This document shows, in pieces, positions 27,122 to 64,000 of a DNA stretch of 64,000 nucleotides. Under the pieces are notes generated by a model. It did no database searches, was not told the origin of the DNA, and saw only the letters and a list, made by a program, of their open reading frames with translations. The stretch spans positions 3,952 through 67,951 of IMG/VR virus record IMGVR_UViG_3300027831_000001, one strand, 5' to 3'. The position numbers and the translations under genes were made by a program. Positions within the stretch are counted from its first letter, which is position 1. Every line of letters starts with the position of its first letter. The stretch is from a virus.

Positions 27122-28786
27122 GTGGGCCTGCTCTCCCGACTGCTCCGCCGCCAAGACTCCCGGCCCCTCGCCGCCCTGGCCCGGCGCGACCACTGGGGGA
27201 CGGCCTCGCCGGGCGGCCGTTGGGTTGGCCCCGGTGGCCAGGGCGGAGCCACCGATCGCACGGCCCAGACGAGCTGGGATCCCGGCTACCCGGTGGACCA
27301 GTGGCTGGCCGATGCGCTGCTGAGCGCCAACCCGTTGGCCCGTCGGATCGCGTCCCAAGAGCCCGAAGACGCGACGCGCGAGGGCTACGACCTCGTAGGC
27401 CTAGACCCCGGGGCGGCCGATGCCGTCGAACAGGCATGCGAGGGGGGCGAGCACGGCCGCGGCCTGGGCCTCTTGTCCGTCCTGGCCAAGGCCCGCACGT
27501 GGGCCCGGGCCTACGGCGGCGGCGCCCTGGTGCTCCTGGTGGACGACGGCCGGCCGTACGACCAGCCGATCGACCGCTCGAACATCCGGGCCGTGCGCGG
27601 GATCTTGGACGCCGATCGCTACGAGCTCACGGTGCAGCGGATCGGGATGGACCGCGACGAGCCGCAGACGTGGGGCAAGCCGCAACTCTACCGGTTGAAC
27701 CTCAACCGCGGCGGCGGGGTGGGCCAGGTTGCGACCGTCCACGCCGATCGGGTCGTGCGGCTCGACGGCGTGCCGCTACCTCGCCGGTTGAAGCTCCAGC
27801 GGCAAGGCTGGGACGGCTCGATCTTTGACCAGTGCTTCTCGGCCCTGCGCAACTACGGCGCGACGCTCGACCAGGTGGCCGAGGCCGTGTCGATGCTGAA
27901 CCAGGGCACGCTCACCTCTGAAGGCCTGGCCGAAGGCCTCGAGACCGAGCAAGGCCCGGCGATCTGGGACGCCCGCATGCTGGCCCTTCGGCGCTCCGCC
28001 GGCATGTACAACGACATCGCGCTCGGGCCCGGCGAGACCTACCAGGTGCACAATCGCAGCATGGCCGGCTTGGGCGAGGCCGTGCTCGCGCTCGAGGACG
28101 CCTTGATCGCCGCGGCGGACGGCATGCCCCGCTTGGTGCTCTTGGGCAAGCTCACCGCGGGCTTCAGCAACGGCTCCAACGGCGAGCTCCGGGCCTGGTA
28201 CGACACCGTCGCGGCTCGCCAGCCCCGCCACTACACGCCAGCGATCCAGGCCGTGGTGGACCTGGTGATGCTGTCCCACGAAGGCCCGACGGGAGGCCAG
28301 CGCCTGCCCTACACGGTGGAGTGGCGCCCGCTCTGGTCGCTCAGCGAGACCGAGCAGGCCCAGCGCGACCTCGCCCGAGCCCAGCGCCGCGCCACCGATC
28401 TGGGCGCCCGTGTGATCGACCGAGCCGAGGCCCGCCGCGAGCCCGCGGTGCTCGAGCTCTACGGCCCCCTGGATCCGGACGCGCCCGAGGAGGGACCGCC
28501 GGGCTCCGAGCCGCTGGACAGCGACGCTCCGCTGGCCGACGCGCCGGACGACGGCGTGATGCCGGAGGGCGTGGTGTCGCTCGTGTCCACGCCGCCCAGC
28601 ACGGCCCGACCGCCGGCCGACTTGCTGACCGAGGAAGAGGCCTGCGCGGCCGCCCGGATCAACGTGCGCCGGCTCCGACGGCTCATGCGCTCCGGGGCCC
28701 TGCCCTACTGGGATTTCGGCGGGGAGTGGAAGGTCTCGGCGGCCGACCTGGCCGCCCTGGGATCTAGCCACCACGTGGCCCCCTAG
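27122..28786 (+). CDS. Portal protein (DUF1073-type) with a C-terminal Xis-like HTH
   Basis: LARRI....EDATREG, WARAYGGG, VHADRV, MP..VLLG and W.PLW motifs; follows TerL. Confidence 0.9.
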   Translation: MGLLSRLLRRQDSRPLAALARRDHWGTASPGGRWVGPGGQGGATDRTAQTSWDPGYPVDQWLADALLSANPLARRIASQEPEDATREGYDLVGLDPGAADAVEQACEGGEHGRGLGLLSVLAKARTWARAYGGGALVLLVDDGRPYDQPIDRSNIRAVRGILDADRYELTVQRIGMDRDEPQTWGKPQLYRLNLNRGGGVGQVATVHADRVVRLDGVPLPRRLKLQRQGWDGSIFDQCFSALRNYGATLDQVAEAVSMLNQGTLTSEGLAEGLETEQGPAIWDARMLALRRSAGMYNDIALGPGETYQVHNRSMAGLGEAVLALEDALIAAADGMPRLVLLGKLTAGFSNGSNGELRAWYDTVAARQPRHYTPAIQAVVDLVMLSHEGPTGGQRLPYTVEWRPLWSLSETEQAQRDLARAQRRATDLGARVIDRAEARREPAVLELYGPLDPDAPEEGPPGSEPLDSDAPLADAPDDGVMPEGVVSLVSTPPSTARPPADLLTEEEACAAARINVRRLRRLMRSGALPYWDFGGEWKVSAADLAALGSSHHVAP

Positions 28787-31572: not shown

Positions 31573-31744
31573 CCCATGCCCGCTCTGCGGCTGCCCTGCC
31601 CCGGGCGGCCATGCCTGCTCGACCGTCCCGGCGCTCCCGCCCGTGCCGCTTGTGGTGGACCACCGGGGACGCCGGGCCCTGGTGGTGGCCGAGCCACCGG
31701 CCCCGCGTGAGCAGCGGGGTGAGCCGGTGCGCCGTCGCGGGTAG
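31565..31744 (+). CDS. 59-aa protein (MTSPCPLCG...)
   Basis: Translated by hand; overlaps the upstream stop. Confidence 0.5.
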   Translation: MTSPCPLCGCPAPGGHACSTVPALPPVPLVVDHRGRRALVVAEPPAPREQRGEPVRRRG

Positions 31745-31761
31745 TGTGCTAGGGTGGTCGC

Positions 31762-31858
31762 GCTTGTAGCGGTGCCCTGGTCCGCTGGTAGATGGGGCGC
31801 GCAACACAGGCCAGCCTGTGCGCGATGGGTTCGACTCCGAAAAGCCGGACAAGCAAGC
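31762..31858 (+). ncRNA. Structured tRNA-like RNA 1 (canonical T-loop motif)
   Basis: GTGTGCTAGGGT promoter; GCTTGT/ACAAGC terminal stem; GGGTTCGACTCC at 31827-31838; terminator downstream. Confidence 0.6.
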
Positions 31859-31894
31859 AAGGGCGGGACTCGCAAGGGTTCCGCCCTTCTCTTT
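31859..31894 (+). terminator. Intrinsic terminator
   Basis: AAGGGCGGGAC...GTTCCGCCCTT followed by CTCTTT. Confidence 0.75.
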
Positions 31895-31920
31895 GGTGCC
31901 GGGTAGTGTGCTAGAGTGGC

Positions 31921-32040
31921 CGCGCTGGGGAGCCAGCGCGAAGGTGGCCACCGGGCAGCGATCCAGCCGCGTCGTAGCTCAGCCGGGGAGAGCACCGAGA
32001 TGATCGGAGGACGGCCGCACACCCAAGCGGCCCAGCGCGT
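31921..32040 (+). ncRNA. Structured tRNA-like RNA 2 (canonical D-arm motif)
   Basis: GTGTGCTAGAGT promoter; TAGCTCAGCCGGGGAGAGC at 31975-31993; cloverleaf-like fold with a shortened anticodon arm and a non-canonical T-loop. Confidence 0.6.
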
Positions 32041-32077
32041 GAAGGGCGGGACTTGTAAGGGTTCCGCCCTTCTTTTT
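32041..32077 (+). terminator. Intrinsic terminator (near copy of 31859-31894)
   Basis: GAAGGGCGGGAC...GTTCCGCCCTTC followed by TTTTT. Confidence 0.8.
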
Positions 32078-32098
32078 GGTGCCGGTAGCCTCGCGCCC

Positions 32099-32863
32099 AT
32101 GCTGGCCCTGCTGCTCTGGCTCCTAGCCCTGTCGCCCCGCGAGGCCGTGGCGTTCGTGACCCCGGTGGAGCACGAGCGCCAGGCCTTGCTGGCCATCGGC
32201 TGGCGAGAGTCACGGCTCCGCCGGGTCGGCCGCCACAAGGCCGATGACCGGCCCCGAGGGTGGACGGGCGACGGCAACACGGCGGCCCGGCGCGTCGGCT
32301 CCCGAGCCTGGGCCCGAGCCGTCCAGCGCGGGATCGTCCGGCCGTGGTGTCAGCCCCTGGGCGACGCTCGAGACTGGAGCACCCGCGGGCCGTGGGGCCA
32401 GGTGGCGGCCTATGCCGTGCCCTACCTGCCGGCCTGCTCGCCCCCGTGGGTCTTGGATCTGCCCGTCGTGTCGGCCTGGGCAGCCGTCCAGCGCCTGCGG
32501 GTGGCCCGGGGATCCGGGGCTCCGCCGGCCCTGCGCAGGTGGGCCCGGGAGGAAATCGACACGGGTGCACAATATCGGTTGACCGCGGAACGGATTAGGA
32601 CTAGCTTACTTTTCATGAGCACCGCAACCGCCAGCCACTACGCCATCAAGACCGGCCGCACCTTCACCGTCGTCAGCGTCTACGCCGACCGCAACCAGTG
32701 CGCGGTGGATGCCACGGCCGGCGGGCGGATCGTCCACCCCTTCACGACCGACCGCGACATCAAGGCCGCCGCGCGCGACGGTGCCGGGGTCGGCTTCAAG
32801 ACCCTGCGCGACGCCTTGGAGAGCCGCGAGGGCGTGACCCGTCGTCGCGACCTGGACTGTTGA
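32099..32863 (+). CDS. Signal-peptide-bearing lytic transglycosylase-like protein, reading in frame into the 32615 gene
   Basis: Hydrophobic N-terminus; AIGWRES (catalytic Glu-like), GPWGQ and LDLP..SAWAA..RL; class A promoter. Confidence 0.6.
   Translation: MLALLLWLLALSPREAVAFVTPVEHERQALLAIGWRESRLRRVGRHKADDRPRGWTGDGNTAARRVGSRAWARAVQRGIVRPWCQPLGDARDWSTRGPWGQVAAYAVPYLPACSPPWVLDLPVVSAWAAVQRLRVARGSGAPPALRRWAREEIDTGAQYRLTAERIRTSLLFMSTATASHYAIKTGRTFTVVSVYADRNQCAVDATAGGRIVHPFTTDRDIKAAARDGAGVGFKTLRDALESREGVTRRRDLDC
32576..32614 (+). promoter_or_regulatory. Class C-like promoter inside a coding frame
   Basis: CGG-TTGACC-17 nt-TAGCTT-7 nt-ATGAGCACCGCAACC. Confidence 0.7.
32615..32863 (+). CDS. Early hypothetical protein (MSTATASHY...)
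   Basis: Own promoter; MSTAT start shared with other class C genes. Confidence 0.7.
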   Translation: MSTATASHYAIKTGRTFTVVSVYADRNQCAVDATAGGRIVHPFTTDRDIKAAARDGAGVGFKTLRDALESREGVTRRRDLDC

Positions 32864-59100: not shown

Positions 59101-60231
59101 ATGCAGACCGCCGCCCTCATCCGCGCACTCGATCCGATCCGCCGCCGCATCGACTCCATTACGGCAGACCCGGGCGAACGGAAGCGTACCCGAAAGCGCT
59201 TCGATCAGCTGATCGAAGCGAGCGCCACCGTGCGCAGCTGGGCCGAGAAGGCCATCCGTGGCGACGCGGTCAATCTGCCGTACGCGGCCCGCCAGCTCGA
59301 ATACGTCTACGAGCAGGCGATCGAGGTGGAGTTCGCCCACCTGGTATTCGCCGACCAGAGCGACCCGCTGGTCCCGTGGGACAGCCAGGTTCCGGTTGGC
59401 GCCCGCACGTTCACCTGGTACTACTCGGAAGGCGCGGGATCGGCAGAATTCTTCGCCGCCATGGGGTCCGACGGGCTGCCCAGCCCGACCGTGATGGGGG
59501 CCGAGCAGGTCGGCAAAGTCGAGCCGTTCGGGTCCGAGATCAAGGTTCGGATCGACCAGCTCCAGGCCGCGGCCTTCGCCGGCCAGAACCTGGACGCTCA
59601 GCTGGCCCTCGCGGACAAGCGAGCGCACGCCGAGCTGCTCAATGCCACGGCGGCATGGGGGCGCCCCGACATCGGCCTGCCGGGCTTGCTCAACAATGAG
59701 CAGATCGGGAACTCGGTCGCGGCCGAGGGCGCGGGCAACAGCACGGCCTGGGCCGACAAGACGCCGGGCGAGATCATCGCCGATGTGCTCAGCATCGTGA
59801 ATGGGATCCAGGAGGCCAGCCAAGAGCTGTATGCGCCGACCGTGATCGCTATGCCGGCCCGGCGCCTCCGAGTGCTCCGGCAGACCCGGATCACCGACGG
59901 CGCCTCGACCGACTCGGGCACCACCACGGTCATGGAATACTTGGAGAAAGCCTTGCGTGATGACGGCAAGACGATCCGCTTCCGGGCCTGCGAGGATCTC
60001 TTGGCGGCCAACGCGGCCGACTATACGGACATGTTCGATGGGCTCGACGGCGATGCCGGCATGCTCGCGTTCAACGACGATCCGCGCTTCGTCAGCCTCG
60101 TCGTACCGGACTACTACCGGGTGTTGGCCGTGCAGGAAAGCGGCCACTGGCTGAACACCCCAACGATGTCGTACATGGGCGGCATCAAGCTCCCCTACCC
60201 GATCACGGTCGCGATCGTGGTCGGCATCTAG
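59101..60231 (+). CDS. Major capsid protein (DUF2184-type)
   Basis: RQLEYV, L.AA..AG.NLD, G.PGLLN, W..KT..EI..D and GGI...YP. Confidence 0.9.
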   Translation: MQTAALIRALDPIRRRIDSITADPGERKRTRKRFDQLIEASATVRSWAEKAIRGDAVNLPYAARQLEYVYEQAIEVEFAHLVFADQSDPLVPWDSQVPVGARTFTWYYSEGAGSAEFFAAMGSDGLPSPTVMGAEQVGKVEPFGSEIKVRIDQLQAAAFAGQNLDAQLALADKRAHAELLNATAAWGRPDIGLPGLLNNEQIGNSVAAEGAGNSTAWADKTPGEIIADVLSIVNGIQEASQELYAPTVIAMPARRLRVLRQTRITDGASTDSGTTTVMEYLEKALRDDGKTIRFRACEDLLAANAADYTDMFDGLDGDAGMLAFNDDPRFVSLVVPDYYRVLAVQESGHWLNTPTMSYMGGIKLPYPITVAIVVGI

Positions 60232-60341: not shown

Positions 60342-60908
60342 ATGGCGGCGAAGCGAGAAGATCAAGCGGTGGCGGACGAGCAAGCACCCGAGACCAAGCC
60401 GGCCCGGGGCGAAGCGAAGGCCGAGTCCAAGGCGCAGAGCGATGTGCTGGTCTACATCGACAGGGAAGGGGCGATCACCTGCCAATGGTACGACAAGCCC
60501 AAGGGCGAGGCCGATCGGCGAGCTCAGATCCCGCAGGCGATCCGCGTGCGGCTGGAGCCCGGGATGAGCTTTTGCCCGGGCCAGCACTGGGCCCAGGTGA
60601 GCTCTAGCCCCAGCTACCGGCAGGGCCTGGAGGCTGGCCGGATCATCCCGATGGCCGGCCACCGCGGTACGCTGGCCGACGAATGGGGGCGCTGCAAGGC
60701 GCCGGCGATCGCCGAGCGGATCCGCAAGACGTTCGGCGTCGAGGTCTTGCTGCGGCTCCAGGATCTGGAGCGCGAGGGGCAGGGCCGCGACGCCGTGATG
60801 GACGCGATCGCGGGCCGACTGGACGACCTGAAGGTCAGGGTCGCCCAGCACGATCAAAAGCGCCGGGCAGCTCGTCGCGGACACCGGCGACCCCGGCCCC
60901 GCGCCTAG
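60342..60908 (+). CDS. Hypothetical head-module protein
   Basis: Follows the capsid gene; C-terminal E....R..V.DAI..RL motif. Confidence 0.6.
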   Translation: MAAKREDQAVADEQAPETKPARGEAKAESKAQSDVLVYIDREGAITCQWYDKPKGEADRRAQIPQAIRVRLEPGMSFCPGQHWAQVSSSPSYRQGLEAGRIIPMAGHRGTLADEWGRCKAPAIAERIRKTFGVEVLLRLQDLEREGQGRDAVMDAIAGRLDDLKVRVAQHDQKRRAARRGHRRPRPRA

Positions 60909-61162
60909 GCCAGCCGGTGGCGCCCGCGCTTGGGCAGACGGGCGCGGGCGAGCGGGCAGGTCCGACGGATCGTGCGCAGGCGAGCGCAGCCCTGGGGCGT
61001 CAAGTCCCACCACCAGCCCACGATGCGCCCCTGGTCCACCACGTGGGCCGGGGTCACAAGGCCCAGCGAGAGGCACCGCAGGACATCGGGCGGGGCCATG
61101 CCGTGGCCCAGGGGCTTACGGGCGGCCCAACGGAGGGCCCGGGCTTGGTCGAGCGGGCTCAT
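60905..61162 (-). CDS. Hypothetical protein (MSPLDQ...)
   Basis: ATGA overlap; shared CTAG stop. Confidence 0.55.
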   Translation of the reverse strand: MSPLDQARALRWAARKPLGHGMAPPDVLRCLSLGLVTPAHVVDQGRIVGWWWDLTPQGCARLRTIRRTCPLARARLPKRGRHRLA

Positions 61163-61497
61163 GGGGTCGCCTTTCCCGTCAACTCCGTCAACAACCGGTG
61201 CATCATCGCGGTCAGGTTGTCGATCTTTTTCTCCACGGTGGCCAGCCGGGTCAGGTGGCGCGGCGATTCGGCGTCGATCTCCGCGGCCGGCAGCACGGCC
61301 TCGCGATGACCGGACGCAAGCCACCACTCGCGGTGCTCTCGTTGCAGGCGAGCCATGATGCCCCGACGGCTCCGCTTGAAGACCTGGGCCACAAGGGCGG
61401 TCGGCGTGCCCATCATCAAGAGCGTCCGCAGCTGGTGATCCGACTCCGGCGTCCAAGGGCGATTCTCGTTTTCGTTCAGTCCGGTGGCTTTTGCCAT
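61159..61497 (-). CDS. Myb/GcrA-like HTH protein
   Basis: PWTPE.D..L..L...G.....VA..F.RS...I.ARL; AGGAG RBS. Confidence 0.65.
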   Translation of the reverse strand: MAKATGLNENENRPWTPESDHQLRTLLMMGTPTALVAQVFKRSRRGIMARLQREHREWWLASGHREAVLPAAEIDAESPRHLTRLATVEKKIDNLTAMMHRLLTELTGKATP

Positions 61498-61572
61498 GAT
61501 CTTGTGTGCTCCTACGCCCAAAGCCCCCGACGGCGGACCGGCGGAGGCGTTGGGCCCGGGTGGGTGTGCGGG

Positions 61573-61953
61573 CTAGGAGCCGATGATCTCCACCTCGCGA
61601 GCGGGCACGTAGGACTCGGCCCCGTCCTCGCCGTCCCAGAGTCCCCAGACTACGCGGCCGTATTGGTCGTGGTCCTCCACCCGCAGGACCTCGCACACCG
61701 CGTCGTTCTCAGCCCAGCGCACCCGCTCGCCCGGCATCGGCTCGCGCTCGCTGGGCGGCGGAGGCACCGGAGCCTGCGGCTCGTCGCCCAGGGCCTTGGC
61801 CACCGTCTTCTCTGGGACACCAGCCACCCGCAGGGCAGCCGCGGCCTCGCGGTGGAGGATCTCGCCGCCGCGCAGTCGCAGGGCCACTCTCAGGACGTAT
61901 TCGGCGCGCTCTTGCTGGGCGTGCCACTCGCGGATCGGATCGTGTTCGCTCAT
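61573..61953 (-). CDS. Hypothetical protein
   Basis: Open frame; SH3-like C-terminus. Confidence 0.6.
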   Translation of the reverse strand: MSEHDPIREWHAQQERAEYVLRVALRLRGGEILHREAAAALRVAGVPEKTVAKALGDEPQAPVPPPPSEREPMPGERVRWAENDAVCEVLRVEDHDQYGRVVWGLWDGEDGAESYVPAREVEIIGS

Positions 61954-62020
61954 GGAGTCGGGTTCCTTGCACGCCCGAACCCCGCGGCGATGGCCAACGG
62001 GGTCAGGGGTAGGCAGGTAG

Positions 62021-62106
62021 TGGAGCTGCCAGGAATCGAACCCGGCCATCCGGCGCGTGACGCAAATACCAAAACCGTCGAAGCGCTCGGGCCACCGAGG
62101 AGCCCC
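62021..62106 (-). ncRNA. tmRNA-like tRNA-like domain without an mRNA-like domain (86 nt)
   Basis: 5' GGGGCT...TTCGACGG and 3' CCGGAT-GGCCGGG-TTCGATT-CCTGG-CAGCTCC-A; G3-U wobble pair. Confidence 0.7.
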
Positions 62107-62112
62107 CGGGTG

Positions 62113-62316
62113 TCAGCGGGACCGCGGGCGCAGTTCCGCCATGGGCGGGTGCGCCTCGTAGGCGCGCGAGACCGCGCGACGGCAGAGCCACCCACGGAGC
62201 GGGCGAGCGAGTCGGTAGAAAAGCCCAGTCACGCGGATCCGCAGCAAACTCTCGGGGCCGCGGTGACGGGTCGACGGGGTGACAAGGGCGAGGATGCGAT
62301 CTTCGGTGGTCTTCAT
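62113..62316 (-). CDS. Hypothetical protein
   Basis: GGAG RBS; lies in an early operon. Confidence 0.55.
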   Translation of the reverse strand: MKTTEDRILALVTPSTRHRGPESLLRIRVTGLFYRLARPLRGWLCRRAVSRAYEAHPPMAELRPRSR

Positions 62317-62349
62317 GGTGTGTGGTCTCCAGGGTGGGTGGTCGGCGGC

Positions 62350-62532
62350 TCAGGCCCGCACTGCGTGGGCTTCGGTGAAGGACTCCACCGGCATGGCCAG
62401 GATGGCGGCCAGGGCCACGATGGCGCGTACTGGCGAGGCGGCCTGCACGGTGTGGGTCAGCGGCCGGCCGTCATAGCGAACGGTCACGGTCCAGAGGGGG
62501 GCGGAAGCGGCGGGCTTGGTGGCGGTGCTCAC
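62350..62532 (-). CDS. Early hypothetical protein (MSTATKP...)
   Basis: Directly after a class C promoter. Confidence 0.65.
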   Translation of the reverse strand: MSTATKPAASAPLWTVTVRYDGRPLTHTVQAASPVRAIVALAAILAMPVESFTEAHAVRA

Positions 62533-62582
62533 GAATAGATATATAGTACGACCGCGGGCGCCGGTCAACCGAAAATCGACAC
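62533..62582 (-). promoter_or_regulatory. Class C sigma70-like promoter
   Basis: GTGTCGATTTTCGG-TTGACC-17 nt-TATATA-7 nt-GTG. Confidence 0.75.
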
Positions 62583-62605
62583 GAGGCCGAAGATAGCCTC
62601 CCAGC

Positions 62606-63025
62606 ATGCCCGCACGAGCTGCTACGGTCGCTGACGTCCTGGCCCTCCCCGGACTCACGGAGGCCACGGAGGGCCAGATCCAGACGGCCCTCACCCAGAC
62701 GGCGCCGCTCGTGGCCGTGCAGCGCTTCCGGGCCCTCACGAGCGAAGCTCATGCCTACCGGGCGGCGCACTGGCTCTGGAGCATGCCGGGACTTGGCTTG
62801 GCTGGCGATGGGCTGGACACCGGCGAGGCCCTGGGCCCGCTGGCGAGCGAGTCAGACGGGCCGGCGGCGCGCTCCTTCGGGGCCGTGGCGTCCAGCGAGG
62901 CCGTACCGGGGAGCGACGCGGATCTACTGCGCAGCCCCTACGGCCGGGCGTTCCTCGACGTGCGCCGGGCCGTGCGGGGTTGGGGCATGGCCCGGGTCGG
63001 CGGCGATCCGTACCAGCCCGTCTAG
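62606..63025 (+). CDS. Head-tail adaptor (DUF4054-type)
   Basis: AYRAAHWL, ASES.G..ARSF and L.SPYGR.F...RR. Confidence 0.8.
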   Translation: MPARAATVADVLALPGLTEATEGQIQTALTQTAPLVAVQRFRALTSEAHAYRAAHWLWSMPGLGLAGDGLDTGEALGPLASESDGPAARSFGAVASSEAVPGSDADLLRSPYGRAFLDVRRAVRGWGMARVGGDPYQPV

Positions 63026-63417
63026 TACAGGTTCGCCCCTTCCTTCGTCACGAAGGAGAGGAACCGCGGCCCGGGCCACGGCACGCCGTCGAGCCGCGCG
63101 CGTATGGCCTCGCGCAGATCGTACTGCGCCGACTCAGCCGCCTCGCTGGGGGAGCGCCAGATCCCACGCGCGCCCATGCGACCATGCTGCACCGCCTCAT
63201 CGATCTCTTCCGGTGTCGCATGCTCCGCGACAACTGGACACGACGTGATAATCCGGCGGGCGTATCCGTCAGGATCTTCAAGGGCGGCGGTCCAGTCGGC
63301 CGCCCATTCGGGCACGATGCCGAGTCGCATGAGCCGCAGTGGCCCGCCGTAGCGGGCGCAGATCACGGCATTCGTCAAGGCAACATGAGGTTTTCTTCCG
63401 TCCAGAGCTGTGTGCAT
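63022..63417 (-). CDS. Hypothetical protein
   Basis: GGAG RBS; shared CTAG stop. Confidence 0.6.
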   Translation of the reverse strand: MHTALDGRKPHVALTNAVICARYGGPLRLMRLGIVPEWAADWTAALEDPDGYARRIITSCPVVAEHATPEEIDEAVQHGRMGARGIWRSPSEAAESAQYDLREAIRARLDGVPWPGPRFLSFVTKEGANLY

Positions 63418-63546
63418 TGTTGGTTCTCCACTGGCCCACCCCCTCGGGCGTGAGCCGTCGGGGGTCGGGGGTCGGGGCTATTTGCCGTGGTACGGGCCCG
63501 GCGACAGTGTCCTCGCGTAGAACGTTGATGAGCAGGGTTGGGTCGG

Positions 63547-63777
63547 TCAGGCGGCAGACTTGCGCTCGCCCACGATTCGACCCGCGGGCGTTGGGGTAAA
63601 GCGGCAGTTCTTGACGACCACCATTCCGCTGCGGAAAAGCGCGCGCATGGTGTCGCGTCGGACGATGCGACCATCGACCATCGTTCGGAACCCGGAAAGC
63701 ACCGGTGTCGAGGCGACGCAGATCGCGGAAAGCACGTGCTTTTGCGCATCGGTGAGTGGTTTGGGCTCGGTCGTCAT
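63547..63777 (-). CDS. Small winged-helix-like protein
   Basis: LTDAQK.VL ... T.RAL.R.GMV ... TPAGR. Confidence 0.6.
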   Translation of the reverse strand: MTTEPKPLTDAQKHVLSAICVASTPVLSGFRTMVDGRIVRRDTMRALFRSGMVVVKNCRFTPTPAGRIVGERKSAA

Positions 63778-63823
63778 GGTGGCGGGTCTCGGTGAGGGAA
63801 GCGGGCGAAGGGGCCCCGGTGGG

Positions 63824-63997
63824 CTAGGCGCTCAGCCGGGCAGCCTCGGCGAGCAGCCGGCGGCGGATGTCGTGGCGGCTGGAGCTGGGCGTCCCGAAGT
63901 CGCACGCGGCGTCTAGTGCCGCGTGCTCGCCGGGGTAGTGCTCGAGCAGCTGCTCGGCGCGAGCGCGGAGGGTGGCGGGGGTCTCGGTGGCGGGCAT
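63824..63997 (-). CDS. 57-aa hypothetical protein (MPATETP...)
   Basis: Translated by hand; TAG stop. Confidence 0.5.
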   Translation of the reverse strand: MPATETPATLRARAEQLLEHYPGEHAALDAACDFGTPSSSRHDIRRRLLAEAARLSA

Positions 63998-64000
63998 GAT

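What the first reader, a model, noticed from the sequence alone, without database searches (positions are those of the whole stretch)
62021..62106. Mini-tmRNA: tRNA-like domain with the tag-encoding region absent
Seen (minus strand): GGGGCTCCTCGGTGGCCCGAGCGCTTCGACGGTTTTGGTATTTGCGTCACGCGCCGGATGGCCGGGTTCGATTCCTGGCAGCTCCA. It has both conserved tmRNA ends: 5' GGGGCT...TTCGACGG, and 3' CCGGA plus T-arm plus CAGCTCCA. The alanine-identity G3-U pair and the A discriminator are kept. Only about 20 nt lie where tmRNA has several hundred nt of pseudoknots and tag ORF. There is an extra hairpin (CTCGG/CCGAG), one acceptor mismatch at position 7 and no encoded CCA. It sits intergenically in an early operon. 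Inference: an SmpB/EF-Tu decoy that blocks trans-translation, or a tag-free ribosome-rescue RNA. Either could matter for a phage relying on leaderless initiation by 70S ribosomes.
Basis: partly seen in the sequence, partly recalled or inferred. Interest (0 to 1): 0.85.

Follow-up and report, generated by a model that had tools for sequence, protein, structure and literature searches.

The report
Aberrant tag-less mini-tmRNA in a phage
This phage carries an 86-base RNA-like element built from the two ends of the bacterial ribosome-rescue RNA (tmRNA); the type is already known from phages, and this copy has an unusually altered middle, so it may no longer work.

Summary
The sequence is at 62021-62106 (-) exactly as described. 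It lies between two minus-strand ORFs in a complete 67.9-kb, 71% GC myovirus genome.

It resembles tmRNA at both ends, and this is not chance. The two-ended pattern matched 0 of 100 shuffles of the window. All 19 other matches (18 viral contigs, 1 genome contig) are bona fide members of one RNA family.

That family is the tag-less "TLD-only" tmRNA, already published for mycobacteriophage DS6A. There it is reported to inhibit host tmRNA, perhaps by titrating SmpB. I found it in well over 100 viral contigs and unannotated in Streptomyces phages. This scan has noted it many times on other DNA.

The window's copy is an outlier:
- The Rfam tmRNA model aligns only its 3' end (11.8 bits). DS6A gets a two-ended 43 bits.
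- My family model gives 23 bits, below ordinary tRNA-Ala (26-27.5) and members (about 37-105).
- It has a C.C acceptor mismatch, a D region of 23 nt (family 11-15) and almost no P2 helix in the canonical register.
- Contigs about 95-97% identical in the downstream gene diverge 13 nt past it.

There is no integrase and no exact match to any host ssrA 3' end, so it is not an attP remnant.

Verdict: a divergent, possibly decaying member of a known kind. Modest interest.

The parts
62021..62106 (-). The 86-nt tRNA-like element (nt 1 = 62106, nt 86 = 62021)
   Evidence: Sequence. Unique pattern match. Top hit of model R2 in the window, 23.2 bits, E 0.0034.
62100..62106 (-). Acceptor 5' strand GGGGCUC, with G3 of the G3.U pair. 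C7 faces C79, a mismatch.
   Evidence: Pair probabilities for nt 1-6 with nt 80-85 are 0.88-0.97. In the family 96 of 99 members have 7 of 7 pairs.
62077..62099 (-). D region, nt 8-30: CUCGGUGG, then about 10 extra nt, then UUCGAC.
   Evidence: The family D-loop is 11-15 nt in 97 of 99 members, and 69 of 99 end in UUCGAC. Hairpin pair probabilities (nt 8-21 to 11-18) are 0.01-0.04.
62050..62090 (-). Predicted long central arm, nt 17-57: CCG.GCGC pairs with GCGCCGG, plus an inner GACG/CGUC stem with a 13-nt loop. This is an alternative P2-like helix.
   Evidence: MFE. Pair probabilities 0.86-0.95. No relatives are available to test covariation.
62029..62045 (-). T arm: CCGGG, loop UUCGAUU, CCUGG (one G.U pair)
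   Evidence: The family T-loop is UUCGAUU in 84 of 99 members.
62021..62028 (-). Acceptor 3' strand CAGCUCC plus discriminator A. The next bases are CUA, so no CCA is encoded.
62113..62316 (-). Upstream ORF of 67 aa, no family match. Its stop codon lies 6 nt before nt 1 of the element. Whether it is a real gene is uncertain.
   Evidence: The GC-phase signal is only moderate.
61573..61953 (-). Downstream ORF of 126 aa, no family match. It has strong codon-phase GC and is conserved at about 95-97% identity in contigs of four other runs.
62008..62009 (.). Mosaic junction. Contigs of runs X2 and X5 match 61713-62008 and 61787-62008, then continue with the same unlike sequence.
   Evidence: tables 7 and 8

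Best explanation
The element descends from a tmRNA tRNA-like domain (TLD). It is an aberrant copy of the phage 'TLD-only' (tag-less, CDS-less) tmRNA type known from mycobacteriophage DS6A.

Inferred mechanism, none of it shown here:
1. It is transcribed with the flanking minus-strand cassette genes.
2. RNase P cuts it at the 5' end, and it is trimmed and given CCA at the 3' end.
3. Because it keeps G3.U70, A73 and a consensus T arm, host AlaRS can charge it with alanine.
4. Like the DS6A RNA, it would compete with host tmRNA for SmpB (and EF-Tu) and so dampen trans-translation and tagging.

Its core is rearranged, so this activity is probably weakened or altered.
For: Shown here:
- The two-ended pattern is unique in the window and absent from 100 shuffles.
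- The same pattern found 18 viral loci, and one locus in 596 billion bases of prokaryote genomes. All 19 are family members (54.7-105 bits with R1; L173 scores 64.8 bits with R2).
- The family is real. In A6, 96% of cells pair, 18 of 22 pairs have compensatory changes, and slid controls pair at 40-53%.
- DS6A's published copy, which was not in the seed, scores 60.8 bits with R1 and 70.6 with R2 at JN698994 28478-28557.
- The window shares collinear motifs with DS6A and the family. These are GGGGCU, GGUGG then UCGAC, a small hairpin containing CACGCG, GGA, the T arm, CAGCUCCA, and CUAC after the discriminator.
- No integrase is present, and the 3' 25-mer matches no genome exactly.
- The element has the same strand as its neighbours and starts 6 nt after a stop codon.

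From papers (passages read):
- The DS6A form is 'little more than the TLD', and a similar molecule strongly inhibits tmRNA, perhaps by titrating SmpB (PMC4131195).
- G3.U70 and A73 are the AlaRS keys, RNase P makes the 5' end, and D-loop/T-loop contacts are needed for SmpB binding (PMC3968760).
Against: - Rfam tmRNA RF00023 gives no hit at E<=10 in 451 nt. It gives only 11.8 bits, 3' end only, in 104 nt. DS6A gets 43.2 bits two-ended.
- R2 gives 23.2 bits. That is below ordinary phage tRNA-Ala genes (27.5 and 26.0 bits) and far below family members (about 37-105 bits).
- The R2 alignment deletes the UUCGAC motif.
- There are four structural departures at once: a C.C mismatch at pair 7 (96 of 99 members have 7 of 7 pairs); a D region of 23 nt (family range 9-17); P2 of 2-3 bp in the canonical register (98 of 99 members have 4 or more); and a junction of GGAUGG, 6 nt (96 of 99 have 4 nt).
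- No look-alike copy turned up in IMG/VR or in earlier scan notes.
- Close relatives of the neighbouring gene lack the element at this place.
- ARAGORN at default settings finds nothing.
- Expression, processing, charging and SmpB binding are all untested.
Confidence: 0.45

Rival explanations
1. It is a decaying remnant (pseudogene) of a TLD-only tmRNA gene. It has the same origin but no longer works as a decoy or rescue RNA, and is carried along in a variable cassette.
For: - It has four core lesions relative to 99 members.
- It fails Rfam tmRNA where DS6A nearly passes.
- Its R2 score is no better than a tRNA-Ala.
- It is absent from contigs about 95-97% identical in the adjacent gene.
- It is a singleton.
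- Its MFE is no better than shuffles.
Against: - Conserved single positions are almost untouched: T-loop 7 of 7, UUCGAC 6 of 6, GG, GGA, and acceptor 6 of 7. The differences are insertions and deletions, which neutral decay alone would not produce.
- An alternative register gives a TLD-shaped fold with a 9-nt D-loop and a 7-bp arm, at high pair probability.
- Phage genomes rarely keep dead DNA for long (general knowledge).
Confidence: 0.3
2. It is a tRNA-like processing signal. The acceptor/T-arm minihelix serves mainly as an RNase P (and 3'-end) cleavage site. This would separate the upstream and downstream messages of the cassette, whatever becomes of the released RNA.
For: - It sits 6 nt after a stop codon and 67 nt before the next start, on the same strand.
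- No promoter-like site was found in 61000-64000.
- The acceptor and T arm are the best-kept parts.
- RNase P matures tmRNA at the 5' end (PMC3968760, passage).
Against: - This does not explain why UUCGAC, GGA and G3.U/A73 are kept.
- No data on transcript ends exist.
- Relatives manage without the element.
- It is not exclusive of the best explanation.
Confidence: 0.12
3. It is an aberrant long-variable-arm (class II) tRNA. UUCGACG would be the anticodon loop (anticodon CGA) and the tRNA would carry alanine identity.
For: ARAGORN with thresholds lowered to 90% calls tRNA-Ser(cga), 87 nt, over this element. The tmRNA H2 helix is known to mimic a long variable arm (PMC3968760, passage).
Against: - There is no call at default thresholds, and no Rfam tRNA hit at E<=10.
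- The proposed anticodon stem has 2 Watson-Crick pairs, 2 G.U pairs and a mismatch. The D-loop is 4 nt and position 37 is C.
- That cloverleaf scores -15.5 kcal/mol against -34.9 for the MFE.
- A Ser-to-Ala missense tRNA would be harmful (inference).
Confidence: 0.04
4. It is an attP or recombination-site remnant that copies the 3' end of a host ssrA, with the 5' resemblance arising by chance.
For: BLAST matches only the 3' third (27-37 nt, 86-93% identity, E 0.07-3) to unannotated stretches of Mycobacterium and Gordonia phage genomes. That these stretches are attP sites of tmRNA-integrating phages is my recollection, not a tool result. A mosaic junction lies 13 nt past the 3' end.
Against: - There is no tyrosine or serine recombinase in the complete genome.
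- The 3' 25-mer has 0 exact matches in 185,579 species genomes.
- The 5' acceptor strand and UUCGAC are present. My estimate of their joint chance is about 2e-4 (my arithmetic from base composition, not a tool result).
- The two-ended pattern matched 0 of 100 shuffles.
Confidence: 0.04

Closest known systems
TLD-only (CDS-less) tmRNA of Mycobacterium phage DS6A (JN698994 28478-28557; tmRNA Website tmID 11587)
   Same: - Both are phage-borne and about 80 nt.
- Both have a G3.U acceptor with discriminator A and a D region with GGUGG then UCGAC.
- Both have a small CACGCG hairpin and a UUCGAUU T-loop.
- Neither has a tag ORF, pseudoknots or an encoded CCA, and both have CUAC after the discriminator.
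   Different: - DS6A has a 7 of 7 acceptor, a 14-nt D-loop, a 5-bp P2 directly after GAC and a 4-nt junction.
- DS6A scores 43.2 bits two-ended on Rfam tmRNA and 70.6 on R2.
- The window has a C.C mismatch, a 23-nt D region, P2 of 2-3 bp and a 6-nt junction. It scores 11.8 bits (3' end only) and 23.2 bits.
- DS6A encodes an integrase and an RtcB-like ligase. The window's phage encodes neither.
The wider phage TLD-only family: IMG/VR contigs plus Streptomyces phages pSt2308 and BRock, where it is unannotated inside tRNA arrays
   Same: Same order of elements and the same literal end motifs.
   Different: Members score about 37-105 bits and show covariation in all four helices. In pSt2308 and BRock the gene sits among tRNA genes near RNA ligase genes. 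The window's phage has no ARAGORN-detectable tRNA, and its copy scores like a tRNA-Ala.
Full-length tmRNA (Rfam RF00023), including those of phages such as Bxz1 (PMC4131195, passages)
   Same: Acceptor with G3.U and A73, the UUCGAC and GGA motifs, and the T arm.
   Different: No pseudoknots and no tag reading frame. The model aligns only the 3' end. There is no full tmRNA anywhere in the phage genome.
CDS-less organellar tmRNAs: mitochondrial forms and the ~65-bp plastid forms of Mallomonadaceae (PMC11915505, passage)
   Same: Natural tmRNAs reduced to roughly the tRNA-like domain.
   Different: These are organellar and co-occur with SmpB, and are thought to assist rescue rather than block it. 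I made no sequence comparison here.
Bacterial or phage tRNA-Ala
   Same: GGGGCU acceptor, G3.U70, A73 and a T arm. tRNA-Ala genes score 26-27.5 bits on R2, similar to the window.
   Different: No anticodon arm. ARAGORN at default settings and Rfam tRNA do not call it.

Membership tests
tmRNA (Rfam RF00023) | Two-ended match to the covariance model at or near the 47-bit gathering score | tested here: not met
   No hit at E<=10 in a 451-nt search. In a 104-nt search, 11.8 bits, 5'-truncated, 3' end only. Control: DS6A's TLD-only copy scores 43.2 bits aligned at both ends.
tmRNA (Rfam RF00023) | mRNA-like domain with a tag reading frame and pseudoknots | tested here: not met
   The element is only 86 nt in all. 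No full tmRNA is present in the 67,951-bp genome.
tmRNA / TLD | Alanine identity: a G3.U70 pair and an A discriminator | tested here: met
   Read directly. The identity rule comes from PMC3968760 (passage). Actual charging was not tested.
DS6A-type TLD-only tmRNA | Score within the family range on a family covariance model | tested here: not met
   R1 gives 18.5 bits and R2 gives 23.2 bits. Members score about 37-105 bits. Ordinary tRNA-Ala genes score 27.5 and 26.0 bits.
DS6A-type TLD-only tmRNA | Literal two-ended signature: GGGGCU ... UUCGAC ... GGUUCGAWUCC NNN CAGCUCCA within about 90 nt | tested here: met
   1 match in the window and 0 in 100 shuffles. All 19 other matches in the viral and genome collections are family members.
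DS6A-type TLD-only tmRNA | Unpaired D-loop of 11-15 nt ending in UCGAC, followed directly by a P2 helix of at least 4 bp | tested here: not met
   The window has 23 nt before P2, and 2-3 bp (GG(U)/(G)CC) in that register. In the family, 97 of 99 have a D-loop of 11-15 nt and 98 of 99 have P2 of 4 bp or more. An alternative register gives a 9-nt loop and a 7-bp arm, but without UCGAC in place.
DS6A-type TLD-only tmRNA | Four-nt junction (GGAC in 78 of 99) between P2 and the T stem, and a 7-bp acceptor | tested here: not met
   The junction is GGAUGG (6 nt) and pair 7 is C.C. In the family, 96 of 99 have 4 nt and 96 of 99 have 7 of 7 pairs.
DS6A-type TLD-only tmRNA | Helices supported by covariation among homologues of this copy | not testable with these tools
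DS6A-type TLD-only tmRNA | Binds SmpB and inhibits trans-translation | not testable with these tools
   Known only for the DS6A-type RNA, from passages in PMC4131195 and PMC11915505. The original paper (Mao et al. 2009) is not in the library.
Canonical tRNA | Cloverleaf with an anticodon arm, detected by ARAGORN or Rfam tRNA | tested here: not met
   ARAGORN at default settings finds 0 genes. No Rfam tRNA hit. Only at 90% thresholds is there a weak tRNA-Ser(cga) call.
Phage attP in ssrA | An integrase gene in the genome, and exact identity with a host ssrA 3' end | tested here: not met
   PF00589 and PF00239 have 0 matches at E<=1 in the complete genome. The 25-mer has 0 exact matches in genome contigs.

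The most novel reading that the evidence does not exclude
The RNA is not decaying but is a functional, re-wired TLD. In the thermodynamically favoured fold it keeps the tmRNA-TLD shape: acceptor, a 9-nt GG-containing D-loop, a long H2-like arm and a T arm. The conserved GAC/GGA junction is replaced by Watson-Crick CCG/CGG pairs. It would then be an alanine-accepting tRNA-like RNA with changed or lost SmpB dependence, for example a decoy tuned to a particular host SmpB, or an Ala-minihelix with a different target. That would make it a second structural solution within phage mini-tmRNAs.
Probability: 0.15. Interest if true: 0.6.

Novelty: new variant of a known kind. Interest (0 to 1): 0.3.

Why it matters
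Tag-less mini-tmRNAs are a plausible phage tool against the host's ribosome-rescue and protein-tagging system. Only one (DS6A) has been described in print, yet the family is common and invisible to standard annotation.

This copy adds little to that picture on its own. It shows how far the core can drift while the alanine-identity acceptor and T arm stay intact. If it proves active, it would mark which TLD features are dispensable for the phage function. If it proves inactive, it is an example of loss of this accessory gene in a mosaic cassette.

Tried and rejected
- Standard detectors. ARAGORN at default settings found 0 genes in the window. Rfam at gathering thresholds found 0.
- Relatives of the phage. 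megablast against 50,697 phage records found no match. The downstream 126-aa protein has no relative in IMG/VR. The major head protein has one relative at 24% identity in IMG/VR (L024).
- Metagenome scan with the head-protein alignment A5. It gave 3 loci. None reaches the element's position: L025 ends at about window 61158, and L026 loses similarity after about 60865.
- Pattern for copies with a long D region. It gave 59 loci. Most of the matches scored by R2 are canonical members that happen to have a GGGG upstream. None resembles the window's copy.
- Earlier notes searched by sequence returned 0 look-alikes.
- Sequencing runs. No RNA holder was listed. The four runs laid are contigs and leave 62018-62239 uncovered. 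This says nothing about expression.
- Other genes in the genome. SmpB (PF01668) and RtcB (PF01139) have 0 matches. There is no second R2 match in the 67,951-bp genome.
- Single-sequence folding is a weak guide. MFE recovers the consensus P2 in only 47 of 99 family members and the T arm in 58 of 99. The favoured central arm is therefore not proof.
- Rfam on 31600-32200, where another note reports a tRNA-like pair, gave only chance-level hits.
- Mao et al. 2009 is not in the library. I know it only through citing passages. Supplements were not opened, and those of PMC11915505 may list more phage forms.
- Paper searches for a description of the wider family. Searches found only the DS6A mentions. 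'TLD-only', 'mini-tmRNA', 'tmRNA-like', 'truncated tmRNA' and 'minimal tmRNA' gave 6 papers, none on phages.

Full report
**What is there.**
The quoted 86 nt are on the minus strand at 62021-62106. The window is bases 3952-67951 of a 67,951-bp IMG/VR virus record that is rated complete, and my script found a 22-bp exact terminal repeat in it. The window's GC content is about 71%.

PHROG matches show a myovirus-type phage. They include tail sheath, tape measure, baseplate wedge, large terminase, portal, head protease and major head protein. The element lies between a 67-aa ORF (62113-62316) and a 126-aa ORF (61573-61953). Both ORFs are on the minus strand and neither has a family match.

This small reverse-oriented cassette sits between the major head gene (59101-60231, +) and a DUF4054 virion gene (62606-63025, +). 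'Early operon' is therefore not shown.

**Is it more than chance?**
The two-ended pattern is GGGGCT, gap, TTCGAC, gap, GGTTCGAWTCC NNN CAGCTCCA. It matches once in the window and in none of 100 shuffles.

The same pattern found 18 stretches in IMG/VR, and one stretch in 596 billion bases of prokaryote genomes. All 19 are 74-81 nt RNAs of one family. The resemblance to both tmRNA ends is therefore real homology, not coincidence.

**The family.**
I built a four-sequence seed model, R1.
- It found all 18 pattern loci and the copies in Streptomyces phages pSt2308 and BRock at 54.7-105 bits.
- It found a sequence that was not in the seed: JN698994 28478-28557 of mycobacteriophage DS6A, at 60.8 bits.

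- 98 of the first 100 new loci carry a match of 38-92 bits.
- 12 of 13 further loci carry a match of 43-76 bits.

On 99 aligned members (A6):
- 96% of cells form standard pairs, against 40-53% when partners are slid.
- 18 of 22 pairs show changes on both sides.
- The alignment was fitted to the model. The search patterns fix GGGG, TCGAC, the T-loop and TCCA, so invariance at those positions is by construction.

In pSt2308 and BRock the gene lies unannotated inside tRNA arrays near RNA ligase genes.

The type is in print.
- Hudson, Lau and Williams list DS6A as 'TLD only'. They note that a similar molecule strongly inhibits tmRNA, perhaps by titrating SmpB (PMC4131195, passages).
- A 2025 database paper repeats that the DS6A form inhibits endogenous tmRNA in E. 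coli (PMC11915505, passages).

This scan has already noted the family many times on other DNA. 484 notes hold the search words, and 7 of the 8 shown follow-ups file a TLD-only mini-tmRNA.

**How the window's copy compares.**
It is an outlier on every quantitative test.
- Rfam tmRNA: no hit at E<=10 in 451 nt. In 104 nt there is only an 11.8-bit, 5'-truncated alignment of the 3' end. DS6A in the same kind of search gets 43.2 bits aligned at both ends.
- R1 gives 18.5 bits.
- The 99-sequence model R2 gives 23.2 bits, E 0.0034. This is the best score in the window (next 14.4), but the alignment deletes UUCGAC.
- Ordinary phage tRNA-Ala genes score 27.5 and 26.0 bits on R2. The score therefore reflects only the alanine-type acceptor and T arm.

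Against the 99 members, the window departs in four ways.

| Feature | Window | Family |
|---|---|---|
| Acceptor pair 7 | C.C mismatch | 7 of 7 pairs in 96 of 99 |
| D region before P2 | 23 nt | 11-15 nt in 97 of 99 |
| P2 directly after GAC | 2-3 bp | 4 bp or more in 98 of 99 |
| Junction before T stem | 6 nt (GGAUGG) | 4 nt in 96 of 99 |

What it keeps is the conserved single positions: GG, UUCGAC, a CACGCG hairpin, GGA, the T-loop, G3.U and A73.

**Fold.**
That structure has the acceptor, a 9-nt GG-containing loop, a long arm (nt 17-57) and the T arm. Its pair probabilities are 0.86-0.95, against 0.01-0.04 for the tested hairpin pairs and 0.00 for the canonical P2.

This shape is still TLD-like, but UUCGAC and GGA end up inside the arm. 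Single-sequence folding recovers the consensus P2 in only 47 of 99 true members. The MFE is no better than shuffles. The fold is therefore open.

ARAGORN at 90% thresholds reads the element as a weak class II tRNA-Ser(cga). That cloverleaf is poor: -15.5 kcal/mol, a mismatched anticodon stem and C at position 37.

**Rivals tested.**
- attP remnant. There is no tyrosine or serine recombinase in the complete genome. The 3' 25-mer has no exact copy in 185,579 species genomes. BLAST similarity to unannotated stretches of Mycobacterium and Gordonia phage genomes covers only 27-37 nt at the 3' end.
- Canonical tRNA: not called.
- The phage has no SmpB, no RtcB, no full tmRNA and no second family copy.

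**Relatives.**
No copy of this variant was found elsewhere.

Contigs from four other runs match the downstream gene and its leader at about 95-97% identity.
- In X2 and X5 the match stops at 62008, 13 nt beyond the element's 3' end.
- Both contigs then continue with the same unlike sequence.

Close relatives therefore lack the element at this place. It is dispensable and sits at a mosaic junction.

**Reading.**
Most likely (about 0.8 in total) the element descends from a tmRNA TLD of the DS6A type.

Whether it still works is open. I put a functional but divergent RNA at 0.45 and a remnant at 0.30. The mechanism is inferred from the DS6A precedent and from textbook tmRNA biology (PMC3968760, passages): RNase P and CCA maturation, alanylation through G3.U70/A73, then competition for SmpB and EF-Tu. 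It is not shown here.

**Verdict.**
The kind is already known, and this is an aberrant variant of modest interest.

Noticed in passing
L022 4001-4078 (Streptomyces phage pSt2308, PV588686) and L023 3992-4069 (Streptomyces phage BRock, KX925554): Canonical TLD-only mini-tmRNA genes (86.7 and 85.2 bits on R2). They lie unannotated inside the tRNA arrays of cultured Streptomyces phages, on the tRNA strand and near RNA ligase genes. BRock's acceptor is GGGUUUG/CAAAUCC, which keeps G3.U through compensatory changes. BLAST also hit phages LuckySocke, GiJojo and Alone3.
   Followed up: partly
The strict pattern hit only one of 32 million prokaryote genome contigs, in a cyanobacterial MAG. The gene is therefore essentially phage-specific.
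   Followed up: partly
L144 3517-3601: An 85-nt family member (47.4 bits on R2) with an irregular, enlarged core. The locus has 35% GC but the element has 66%. This is another structurally deviant copy.
   Followed up: no
window 60905-62600, minus strand: A reverse-oriented cassette of small unnamed ORFs is wedged between the major head gene and a DUF4054 virion gene. One ORF (61159-61521) weakly matches a 'D5-like transcriptional regulator' PHROG (E 5.6e-6). A terminator-like hairpin lies on the minus strand at 62590-62576.
   Followed up: partly
window 62248-62282: A 35-nt patch inside the 67-aa ORF recurs, with 3 differences, in contigs of runs X2 and X5. Both contigs are unlike the window on either side of the patch. 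Unexplained.
   Followed up: no
window 31741-32085: Another note on this genome reports two tRNA-like units here. Rfam at E<=1 gave only chance-level sRNA hits, and ARAGORN and R2 find nothing.
   Followed up: partly
L020/L021 (DS6A, JN698994): DS6A's TLD-only gene (28478-28557) lies between gp33 and the DNA polymerase III gene gp34, and is not annotated in the record. The phage also encodes a tyrosine integrase (gp56) and an RtcB-like RNA ligase (gp76).
   Followed up: no
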